DNA from: Mizuhopecten yessoensis
Taxonomy: Eukaryota
Direction: 5' to 3'
Length of the DNA stretch: 64,000 nt
NCBI RefSeq assembly: GCF_002113885.1
Contig: NW_018480057.1
Location: forward strand, 575,891-639,890
Made by a program: the position numbers and the translations under genes. Shown here one piece after another: positions 847-3,800 of the stretch; the first letter of the stretch is position 1, and each line of letters begins with the position of its first letter. Under the pieces are notes generated by a model that worked only from the letters and a program-made list of their open reading frames with translations, was not told the origin of the DNA and ran no database searches.

Positions 847-3800
847 CTGAATTGAGAGATAATTAGTCTGTGATTAGCATCAGGAATTAGCCCATACTTG
901 TGTTGTACTGTTGTTATAACATAATTATCAGTTATAAATTCTACATCAAATTTATTCCAATTACCACATCATTTTATATTATTGCATCCCAAAAATATAT
1001 TTGTTATGTACATTTATAGAGAAAGGAAGGATTCTGTACATATTTGCCATGATATATTAGCTCAATTTGTAAAAATATTTGCTATCATATCAGTATGAAA
1101 ATTACAAAATGCCGTCAAATCTCGGTATTAACAACATAAAATTGAATAACTGGACTCTACTTAACTGAATGGATTATATATCTAATTCCTACTGTATGTA
1201 AACAGTATACTGGTAAGCTTTTGTTCAATCAAATATTGACCCTTCACCAGCAAAATCCATGTTCGCCCTGTGATAATTGCACCCTCCATATGTTAGCGCT
1301 ATCTATGTATATATATATATATATGGTATGCTGTGTACACATATATTTACTGTCATGATAAATTCACCCTTATTGTGGAGGGTGAAAAAGGCTCAAGTTC
1401 AACTATGGTGAAAACTTCTCAGTATCAAGTATATTTTATAGTTTTTGCATATTGTCAATGAAACAATACTGAAAAAATAAAATAGCAATCCCAGAAATCT
1501 CAGTCACTTGAGGAACTGGTTTCGAAGCTTTTTATTGTTACTTGAGGAACTGGTTTCGAAGCTTTTTATTGTTACTTGAACTTTGAAATTTGCCACTTCA
1601 AAGTTCAAGTAACTATAAAAAGCTTATTATTTTATTTTTTTCCATTTTCCATTGATAAATATGAACGATGTCAAAAACCAAACTTAACATTTGAAGTAAA
1701 ATTGTAAAAACAATTAATTTGATCTTTATGAGATAACTCTGGTATCAGAACAAAGATTTATGACTGGCGAAAACATTGAGTAGTAGACATGATTTTTGTA
1801 TGAGACACTCCCTCCTCCAAAGAAATATTCATACACAATTTTGCAGTTCTAGGAGGCATACATTGTATATAAAGTTATATACGGGATAAACAATGGACAT
1901 TCAATGTGATATAGGGTAACAAGGGGCTATAACTCTAGATGTATAAAGTGGGGTACGAGATCTTATTTAAGTATGTGACACTCCATCATTTGAAAAGGTA
2001 CTCGCATAAAAAAAATGGCAATTGCAGGTGAAAGTTTCAAGCTTAAGTTTACATAAAATATATGCCACTGAACAAAGTGACACATGGACTGACAGATCGA
2101 GAGCAAACATGCATGTAGTCCCATCTGGTAGTACCAGTGAGGGACTAATAATACTGAAAATATCAGTATTCATCTACCTAATGTGTCAATGGAATGTTAA
2201 TGACCACATAACAATGCTTTGTAAAACTTGCTTTTGTACTTTAAAATCTAGGCCTCACAATGCAATACTGTAATGCATCGTAAGCATATGATCATGATGT
2301 ACAACTGTATTTTATACCTAAATATACTCCACAAGATGCAACTGTAACCTAATTATTTCACATTAAGTAACTCTTACCTTACATCCCTCACAGGATGTGA
2401 CACCGTGGTGAAAGCCTGACGCTTTGTCTCCACACACATGAAGTAACTCTTACCTTACATCCCTCACAGGATGTGACACCGTAGTGAAAGCCTGACGCTT
2501 TGTCTCCACACACATGAAGTAACTCTTACCTTATATATAATTACATCCCTCACAGGATGTGACACCGTAGTGAAAGCCTGATGCTTTGTCTCCATACACA
2601 TGAAGTAACTCTTACCTTACATCCCTCACAGGATGTGACACCATAGTGAAAGCCTGACGCTTTGTCTCCATACACATGAAGGAACTCTTACCTTACATCC
2701 CTCACAGGATGTGACACCGTAGTGAAAGCCTGACGCTTTGTCTCCACACACTTTACAGGGAACGAAAGTCTGTTTGGGACTGTTCGAGTCAGCAGCAGCA
2801 GCTTGAATCACATTCTCTTCTGTAAAATTATGGATAAACGTTTAAATTATAAGTAATTTGTTTTTGAAAATAGAACGCTAAACTTGCAGTGAGATTTCGT
2901 CTGTTTTCGACCTTGATTAGGACCCAAATTGGTACATCATATCACAGGCTATGCAACTTGTTTTTATTTCTACTAGTTGATGTGCCGATTGCAACAAAAT
3001 GTATTGCTTTTATAAATTTATACCATACTGAACTACAATTGTATATGTAAACTTTTATATTATAAGGACCAGAAATCAACATTTAACCATGCTTATATTT
3101 AACCCCTTCAAAATCCTCGAAAATTTTGTTGACGTGCGTCGTTTTTACTGGTTTTCCGACATGTTTTCTTAGAAGTCATTGTGTACTCTTAAAATATTCC
3201 TGAAAACAAAACTGTTCGGTGGAAATGCTGATAAATGTCTCTTTTGATATATTGTTAAAGGAAAATGCTCAAATTTAATTTTAAAGTACAATTCGAACCA
3301 TTTTCTGACCGTGTACCAATTTGGGTAGTGTACCAATTGTGGTAGCATGACGTAATAATAGTTGGTGACAGTTTGTTGGCACAGACTATATGCACCTCGG
3401 ATTTGTCACCATATGTATAGATCTGTAATTGATAATTGCTTCCAACTAATTATCAGTGTTATACTCTTCATAGACTGTTAGCAAAATTGCATTATTCACA
3501 TGAAGTATCCTAATTAACTTTCAGAATACAAGTGACAGTAGGCTGTATAGCAATAAGCTTAGTTTCTACACATATACAGCCTCATCATCCTCAAGTAATT
3601 ATGAAAACCAGACATACAATGTGCAGGTTGGGGAAAACCACCAACTTGCGTATACTACGCAAACTCGCCTATTATACGCCATTTGCAGTATGGATTTTTT
3701 ACTAAAATTAACCCAAATCGCTTTAATAGTAACTTTTGCAAGATATTATTAAAAATCGCATTAATTTATGACAAGGTAAATAATATTTTGCTAAAATATG

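What the first reader, a model, noticed from the sequence alone, without database searches (positions are those of the whole stretch)
2365..2751. E78 zinc-finger-1 half exon plus donor copied five times; only the first copy stays intact and coding
Seen: each 76-bp unit encodes [20 protein letters not shown] followed by AAG|GTAAGA, giving five donors with the same core. Any distal donor forces read-through to TGA at 2626-2628, leaving a one-finger product or an NMD target. Extra copies show decay: TGT>TAT (Cys>Tyr) in two, a 10-bp insertion in one, TAC>CAC in the last. The last copy is the one contiguous with unique intron, and the junction has a GTG microhomology. Inference: recent slippage or unequal crossover; donor competition could reduce functional receptor. 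DBD-truncated isoforms are established for insect E75/E78, arising there through alternative promoters.
Basis: partly seen in the sequence, partly recalled or inferred. Interest (0 to 1): 0.7.

Follow-up and report, generated by a model that had tools for sequence, protein, structure and literature searches.

The report
Repeated splice donor in scallop E78
In a scallop's E78 nuclear-receptor gene, the last 60 bases of a zinc-finger exon and its splice signal are repeated five times into the next intron; the copy number likely varies between animals and the spare signals are likely mostly ignored, an arrangement already known from human, lancelet and chicken genes.

Summary
Real, but a known kind of thing. 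Five 76-bp units (60 exonic + 16 intronic bases) reiterate the AAG|GTAAGA donor of an intact 469-aa scallop E78 gene. The head-to-tail junction is in 3 of 3 DNA-type runs laid, so the array is no assembly artefact; unit/flank depth ratios (about 2, 3-4, 11-16) suggest a variable minisatellite. Two of three RNA-type runs give one unbranched contig using a single unit; the third holds the normal joint plus a 76-base loop, which a model of normal mRNA plus unspliced RNA reproduces, though some distal-donor use cannot be excluded. Corrections: copy 4 is also intact (0/60 exonic differences), and the read-through product (148 aa, keeps finger 1, loses the ligand-binding domain) is the reverse of E75B. 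This is an exon-border minisatellite like human F7 IVS7, lancelet 'mirages' and chicken 'exon stuttering'. The neighbouring RFX6-like gene has a second, older one. The scan noted this class before on other DNA (140 notes, at least 41 genomes; two more in this genome).

The parts
4070..4322 (-). E78 first coding exon (ATG at 4322; donor after 4070)
   Evidence: tblastn with scallop E78; spliced model 469/469 identical to P0130
2692..2819 (-). E78 second coding exon, 128 nt, zinc finger 1; its last 60 nt are the exonic part of repeat copy 1; working donor after 2692
   Evidence: Pfam zf-C4 E 3.5e-10; X15 contig covers 2691-2821 and runs on into the next exon
2676..2751 (-). Copy 1 (60 exonic + 16 intronic nt), coding
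2600..2675 (-). Copy 2, spare donor after 2616; TGT>TAT, TAC>TAT; holds the read-through stop
2626..2628 (-). TGA reached by any transcript that passes the first donor (148-aa product; 776-1014 nt upstream of the last exon junction)
2514..2599 (-). Copy 3, 86 nt, spare donor after 2530; TGT>TAT, GCG>GCA, 10-nt palindromic AT insertion just before the donor
2438..2513 (-). Copy 4, spare donor after 2454; exonic part identical to copy 1
   Evidence: 0 of 60 differences
2362..2437 (-). Copy 5, spare donor after 2378; TAC>CAC; continues into unique intron
   Evidence: the CAC type is the main unit contig of DNA run X1
705..846 (-). E78 third coding exon, 142 nt, zinc finger 2; acceptor at 846
   Evidence: Pfam zf-C4 E 1.1e-17; splice joint in X13 and X16; five more exons lie beyond the window in L006

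Best explanation
A 76-bp piece spanning the end of the scallop E78 zinc-finger-1 exon and its splice donor stands in five tandem copies; it is likely an unstable minisatellite whose first donor makes the normal mRNA while the spare donors are likely mostly unused. It likely began as one tandem duplication at a short GTG microhomology (slippage or microhomology repair) and then grew and shrank by unequal exchange, with different unit variants spreading in different animals. Exon definition and first-donor preference likely pick the donor nearest the exon's acceptor (128-nt exon against 204-442 nt); any transcript that leaks to a later donor would meet a stop at 2626-2628 and would be a nonsense-mediated-decay target. 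The array is likely a tolerated by-product, not a switch.
For: Shown: array and variants; gene intact, 8 coding exons, 469 aa, identical to a scallop protein named E78-like. Tandem junction present in 3 of 3 DNA-type runs laid (X1, X2, X3; three studies), with contig lengths 149/63/73/845 exactly as a de Bruijn model of a multi-copy array predicts, where a single copy would give one contig. Unit/flank depth 2.1 (X2), 3.6-3.9 (X3), 10.7-15.9 (X1). Main unit type CAC in X1, TAC in X2, X3, X13. RNA-type runs X15 and X16 (two studies): one contig each (1452 and 2028 nt) from upstream exon through a single unit into the next exon. In X13 the contig leaving for the next exon is deeper (82) than the loop (56.6); normal mRNA at 82 plus unspliced molecules at 7.6 with four copies gives a 106-nt contig at 59.2 (observed 106 nt, 56.6), whereas distal-donor-only use makes the exit shallower than the loop. 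Precedent: F7, lamin B2 and PDGF use only the first donor (PMC1557585); lancelet mirages do not disturb splicing by RT-PCR (PMC3087553). A second exon-donor-derived minisatellite lies in the next gene.
Against: All runs are assembled contigs, which drop rare forms; X15 and X16 are shallow (depth about 8), are RNA only by guess, and their animals may carry a single copy, in which case they say nothing about competition. Nonsense-mediated decay would hide distal-donor products anyway. X13, the only run on record as RNA that I laid, holds the tandem junction and lacks the contig for the upstream part of the exon; its junction depth (about 23 if the mRNA is at 82) could be distal-donor mRNA, up to about a quarter of the signal. 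In human 6-16 and CBS, two spare donors are used besides the first (PMC1557585, introduction). The five donors are identical from -3 to +7, so strength does not favour the first. Contig depth is a rough guide to copy number, and X1 may be a pool.
Confidence: 0.75

Rival explanations
1. Real donor competition: a sizeable share of transcripts splice at copy 2 or later, are destroyed by nonsense-mediated decay, and so long arrays lower E78 dose.
For: Identical donor cores; all four distal donors give a stop 776-1014 nt upstream of the last junction; X13 RNA holds the tandem junction (go-back-76 joint); spare donors are used in human 6-16 and CBS, and a cited title links the CBS repeat to lower enzyme activity (PMC1557585, introduction and reference list).
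Against: X15 and X16 show no junction; X13 is reproduced by unspliced RNA or DNA alone and its intron contig at 7.6 shows such molecules exist; F7 constructs use the most upstream donor even against stronger downstream ones (PMC1557585).
Confidence: 0.17
2. The array is real but the exact five-copy layout and the variants of copies 2 and 3 in this window are partly products of a short-read assembly.
For: G000 is in 82,659 pieces; the copy-2/3 variants (TAT, 10-nt insertion) appear in no shown row of the 6 runs laid (94 and 248 pieces were not shown).
Against: The junction and the CAC variant are in independent runs; two of four exonic substitutions are CpG transitions, a biological pattern; contigs drop rare variants.
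Confidence: 0.05
3. The array yields an E75B-like receptor without finger 1: the insertion in copy 3 puts an ATG at the unit junction in frame with the next exon (366 aa, finger 2 plus ligand-binding domain) if the copy-3 donor is used.
For: The frame is open. X13 lacks the contig for the upstream part of the exon. E75B has this anatomy (PMC3388334).
Against: It needs a start site inside the array or re-initiation after a 148-codon upstream frame; it is out of frame for the other three spare donors; no copy-3-type joint was listed; the upstream contig is also missing in DNA run X1, where the exon must exist, so its absence is likely an assembly or filter effect.
Confidence: 0.03

Closest known systems
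Human F7 intron 7 37-bp VNTR, with 6-16, CBS intron 13, lamin B2 (100-bp unit) and PDGF intron 4 (81-bp unit) minisatellites (PMC1557585; read: abstract, synopsis, introduction, discussion, found passages)
   Same: First monomer spans the exon/intron border, the donor is reiterated, copy number is polymorphic (5-9 in F7), first donor normally wins.
   Different: Here 60 of 76 nt are coding and hold three of four zinc ligands of a nuclear-receptor finger (4 of 37 nt exonic in F7); donor use here is seen only in assembled contigs; host is a mollusc.
Lancelet 'mirage' minisatellites (Adh3, globins BflGb6/BflGb9; PMC3087553, passages read; the original Adh paper was not held)
   Same: Invertebrate tandem duplications of exon/intron borders, units 10-160 bp, length differs between haplotypes (6 and 3 units), concerted turnover, regular splicing not disturbed.
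   Different: Different phylum and gene; somatic instability reported for Adh3 was not testable here.
Chicken 'exon stuttering' (PMC12954441; abstract, outline and passages read)
   Same: Lateral part of a coding exon with its donor copied into the intron, median 4 copies, highly length-variable between individuals.
   Different: Tied to GC-rich avian dot chromosomes; here an AT-rich scallop locus (window GC 36%).
Drosophila E75B, one-finger isoform (PMC3388334, two passages)
   Same: Same receptor subfamily and loss of half the DNA-binding domain.
   Different: E75B starts at the half of the DBD and keeps the part that dimerises; read-through here keeps finger 1 and loses everything after it, and is a predicted decay target.

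Membership tests
Exon-border minisatellite (F7 IVS7 type, 'mirage', 'exon stuttering') | First monomer spans a working exon/intron border | tested here: met
   Copy 1 = last 60 nt of exon 2819-2692 + 16 intron nt; splice seen in RNA-type contigs
Exon-border minisatellite (F7 IVS7 type, 'mirage', 'exon stuttering') | Splice signal reiterated head-to-tail in the adjoining intron | tested here: met
   Five AAG|GTAAGAG donors, period 76
Exon-border minisatellite (F7 IVS7 type, 'mirage', 'exon stuttering') | Copy number differs between individuals | tested here: met
   Unit/flank contig depth 2.1, 3.6-3.9, 10.7-15.9 in 3 of 3 DNA-type runs laid, 5 copies in the window; rough ratios, not genotypes
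Exon-border minisatellite (F7 IVS7 type, 'mirage', 'exon stuttering') | Normal mRNA is made from the first donor | tested here: met
   Unbranched contigs in X15 and X16; joint to 846 in X13 and X16; annotated 469-aa protein equals the first-donor model
Exon-border minisatellite (F7 IVS7 type, 'mirage', 'exon stuttering') | Spare donors silent or minor | tested here: inconclusive
   Contigs only; X13 holds the junction, explained by unspliced molecules but not proven so
E78 / NR1E nuclear receptor | C4 zinc-finger DBD and ligand-binding domain orthologous to E78 | tested here: met
   Best named hits to exon 846-706 are mostly E78 at 98-100%; model 445/469 identical to Pecten maximus E78-like and 469/469 to a Mizuhopecten yessoensis E78-like protein; no tree was built
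E75B-type DBD-truncated isoform | Lacks finger 1, keeps the C-terminal part with the ligand-binding domain | tested here: not met
   Read-through product is 148 aa, keeps finger 1, ends before finger 2; only the copy-3 internal ATG gives such a frame, unobserved
E75B-type DBD-truncated isoform | Own promoter inside the gene | not testable with these tools
   Contigs cannot show transcript starts
Recursive splice site (AG|GT ratchet point; features recalled) | Polypyrimidine tract and YAG before the regenerated donor | tested here: not met
   By reading the sequence: AAG preceded by purine-rich GAGGGATGT, unlike the T-rich acceptors of the gene's real exons; no scoring model was run

The most novel reading that the evidence does not exclude
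The array is a natural dial on a developmental nuclear receptor: animals with ten or more spare donors lose a measurable share of E78 mRNA to distal splicing and decay, and unequal exchange can move the Cys>Tyr or Tyr>His variants of the spare copies into the working finger (both residues invariant in 84 of 84 E78 hits that hold this exon), so that copy number and unit type set receptor dose and mutation load in scallop stocks.
Probability: 0.12. Interest if true: 0.6.

Novelty: new member of a known kind. Interest (0 to 1): 0.2.

Why it matters
As it most likely stands, it is one more tolerated exon-border minisatellite and matters little, except as a trap for short-read mapping and variant calls in E78 (the spare copies would look like heterozygous Cys>Tyr and Tyr>His changes) and as a ready length marker. 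If long arrays did lower E78 mRNA or fed damaged codons into the working finger, it would be a natural allelic series for testing 5' splice-site choice in a mollusc and a candidate locus for growth or developmental variation in a farmed species.

Tried and rejected
Assembly artefact for the array as a whole: rejected, junction in 3 of 3 DNA-type runs. Multi-finger protein by in-frame inclusion of copies: rejected, 76 is not a multiple of 3, each unit lacks the first Cys, and every route past the first donor stops at 148 aa. Recursive splicing at the AG|GT of each unit: rejected on sequence (purine-rich upstream). Dispersed or mobile element: only one locus in G000 plus two paralogue exons (that search scores best candidates only). 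Missing cover at 2752-2820 in X13 and X1 is not taken as evidence: a filter drops records and X1 is DNA. Paper searches for a report on this locus or on scallop exon-border minisatellites found none; searches for E78B/E75B isoforms gave only the E75B passage, so the E78 alternative-promoter claim is unverified here. The original lancelet Adh paper was not held. A Pfam scan of 82 of the 104 listed stop-free frames found only RVT_1, BCD_RFX and one sub-threshold DAHP hit. My first regex count of conserved residues was too narrow (6 hits) and was redone (84 of 120; the other 36 lack or mis-annotate this exon).

Full report
Observation. The minus strand of 2751-2362 holds five head-to-tail units of 76 nt (copy 3 is 86 nt), TRF score 647 at 91% matches. 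Each unit is the last 60 nt of a coding exon plus the first 16 nt of the intron, so AAG|GTAAGAG occurs after 2692, 2616, 2530, 2454 and 2378. Six columns vary among copies besides the insertion: TGT>TAT (copies 2, 3), GCG>GCA (3), TAC>CAC (5), TAC>TAT (2) and two intronic changes; pairwise differences are 1-4 of 76. Copy 4 is identical to copy 1 over all 60 exonic bases, so the title's 'only the first copy stays intact' is wrong. GTG stands on both sides of the junction, as stated.

The gene. Both exons match Pfam zf-C4. The exon at 846-706 finds 1216 proteins; the 120 listed match at 94-100% and most named ones are E78. With the first donor the gene has eight coding exons (three in the window, five in L006), all with AG/GT borders, and encodes 469 aa: 445/469 identical to Pecten maximus E78-like and 469/469 to a protein named E78-like of Mizuhopecten yessoensis. 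The gene is intact. G000 has no second copy of the array; two paralogue exons match at 78-79%. Oyster has a single named E78 homologue, CgNR1E (PMC4070562, passages); I found nothing on mollusc E78 function beyond that.

Is the array real and variable? Of 18 runs listed I laid six: three DNA-type (X1, X2, X3; three studies; kinds guessed or unrecorded) and three RNA-type (X13 on record as RNA; X15, X16 guessed). All are assembled contigs, and the tables were cut (55 and 67 loose ends, 94 and 248 pieces not shown). The tandem junction is in 3 of 3 DNA-type runs. A de Bruijn model with k=31 predicts contigs of 149, 63, 73 and 845 nt for any multi-copy allele and one contig for a single copy; X2 shows 149, 63, 73, X3 shows 63 and 73, X1 shows 845. 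Unit-to-flank depth is 2.1 in X2, 3.6-3.9 in X3 and 10.7-15.9 in X1; junction-to-flank 1.3 and 2.0-2.1 in X2 and X3. The tool warns that depth is no copy number; the unit is GC-richer than its flanks (0.47 against 0.32-0.38) and X1 may be a pool, but a five- to eightfold spread is hard to explain otherwise. The main unit is the CAC type in X1 and the TAC type in X2, X3 and X13, which points to turnover of unit variants. The copy-2 and copy-3 variants of the window were not in any shown row.

Which donor is used? X16 has one 2028-nt contig from the upstream exon through one TAC-type unit to 846 and on to the next exon; X15 has one 1452-nt contig of the same form. Neither shows a junction, but both are shallow (about 8) and the animals' genotypes are unknown. 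X13 has the joint to 846 (contig depth 82), a 106-nt contig that is one full turn of the repeat (depth 56.6, go-back-76 joint), an intron contig at 2008-2352 (7.6), and no contig for 2752-2820. A model of normal mRNA at 82 plus unspliced molecules at 7.6 with four copies gives 106 nt at 59.2 once the entry is removed; distal-donor-only use would make the exit shallower than the loop, the reverse of what is seen. This model was fitted after the fact and does not exclude distal use: junction depth of about 23 against 82 caps it near a quarter if the mRNA depth is even. The upstream contig is also missing in DNA run X1, so its absence is not read as biology.

Consequence of leaking. All four distal donors give the same 148-aa product, stopping 776-1014 nt upstream of the last junction; by the general exon-junction rule (established knowledge, recalled) these would be decay targets. 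The product keeps finger 1 and loses finger 2 and the ligand-binding domain. E75B is the reverse: it starts half-way through the DBD and represses through its dimerisation partner (PMC3388334). One curiosity: the copy-3 insertion brings a junction ATG into frame with the next exon (366 aa without finger 1), but nothing shows it is made.

Mechanism. Shown: anatomy, intact gene, junction in independent DNA, normal splice in RNA-type contigs. Inferred: origin by duplication at the GTG microhomology, growth by unequal exchange, first-donor preference through exon definition (128 nt against 204-442 nt), decay of leaks.

What is known. Minisatellites whose first monomer spans an exon/intron border are described in human F7, 6-16, CBS, lamin B2 and PDGF; F7, lamin B2 and PDGF use only the first donor, 6-16 and CBS use two more (PMC1557585). 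Lancelet 'mirages' are the invertebrate precedent, with length polymorphism and undisturbed splicing (PMC3087553). Chicken 'exon stuttering' has a median of four copies and high length variation (PMC12954441). The last two papers came to me as leads from earlier notes of this scan and I read the passages myself. Supplements were not read. No paper on this locus turned up.

Base rate. The next gene, RFX6-like, has a 31-bp array at 18552-19425 whose units match its own exon end and donor at 19914: 27 copies at 21 or more of 32 bases, best 28 of 32, none elsewhere on the minus strand of the window. So 2 of the 2 host genes found in the window carry such an array. Unchecked notes report two more in this genome and 140 in at least 41 genomes.

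Verdict. A real, young, likely polymorphic exon-border minisatellite in an intact scallop E78 gene; new member of a known kind. Interest 0.2.

Noticed in passing
window 18552-19425 (exon end at 19914, minus strand): A second, older exon-donor minisatellite: 31-bp units resembling the end and donor of an RFX6-like exon (27 copies at >=21/32, first 28/32), starting about 490 bp inside the intron rather than at the border.
   Followed up: partly
window 17635-62296, minus strand: RFX6-like gene upstream of E78 on the same strand, 18 tblastn pieces to a scallop RFX6-like protein.
   Followed up: partly
window 2531-2541 (copy 3): The 10-nt insertion is a perfect AT palindrome and can be read as a TAA duplication around 7 nt, as a transposon excision footprint or end-joining scar might look (interpretation recalled, untested).
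   Followed up: no
window 2008-2352: RNA run X13 covers only this part of the intron next to the array (depth 7.6) and not most of the rest; unspliced RNA, DNA or an array-plus-intron read-through are all possible.
   Followed up: partly
window 2816-2819: Tandem acceptor AG-AAG at the start of the zinc-finger-1 exon; both positions keep the frame and differ by one Glu.
   Followed up: no
window 2836-2936 with 3311-3344, and 1342-1392: High-copy interspersed elements flank the locus (hundreds to thousands of summed depth in DNA runs; 15-bp inverted arms at 2922-2936 and 3312-3326), likely small DNA transposons.
   Followed up: no
window 8673-9359, minus strand: Fragments of a reverse transcriptase (Pfam RVT_1) in two frames, likely a decayed retroelement.
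   Followed up: no
window 35427-36592, 43105-43724, 49789-50191, 50688-53648, 59461-59853, 62879-63429: Six further minisatellites (units 20-58 bp) with no GGTRAG donor motif; the one at 43105 abuts the acceptor side of an RFX6-like exon at 43114-42965.
   Followed up: no
L004:1500-1570 and L005:1500-1570: Two paralogous nuclear-receptor exons end at the same intron position after the CEGCK codons; neither was examined for repeats.
   Followed up: no
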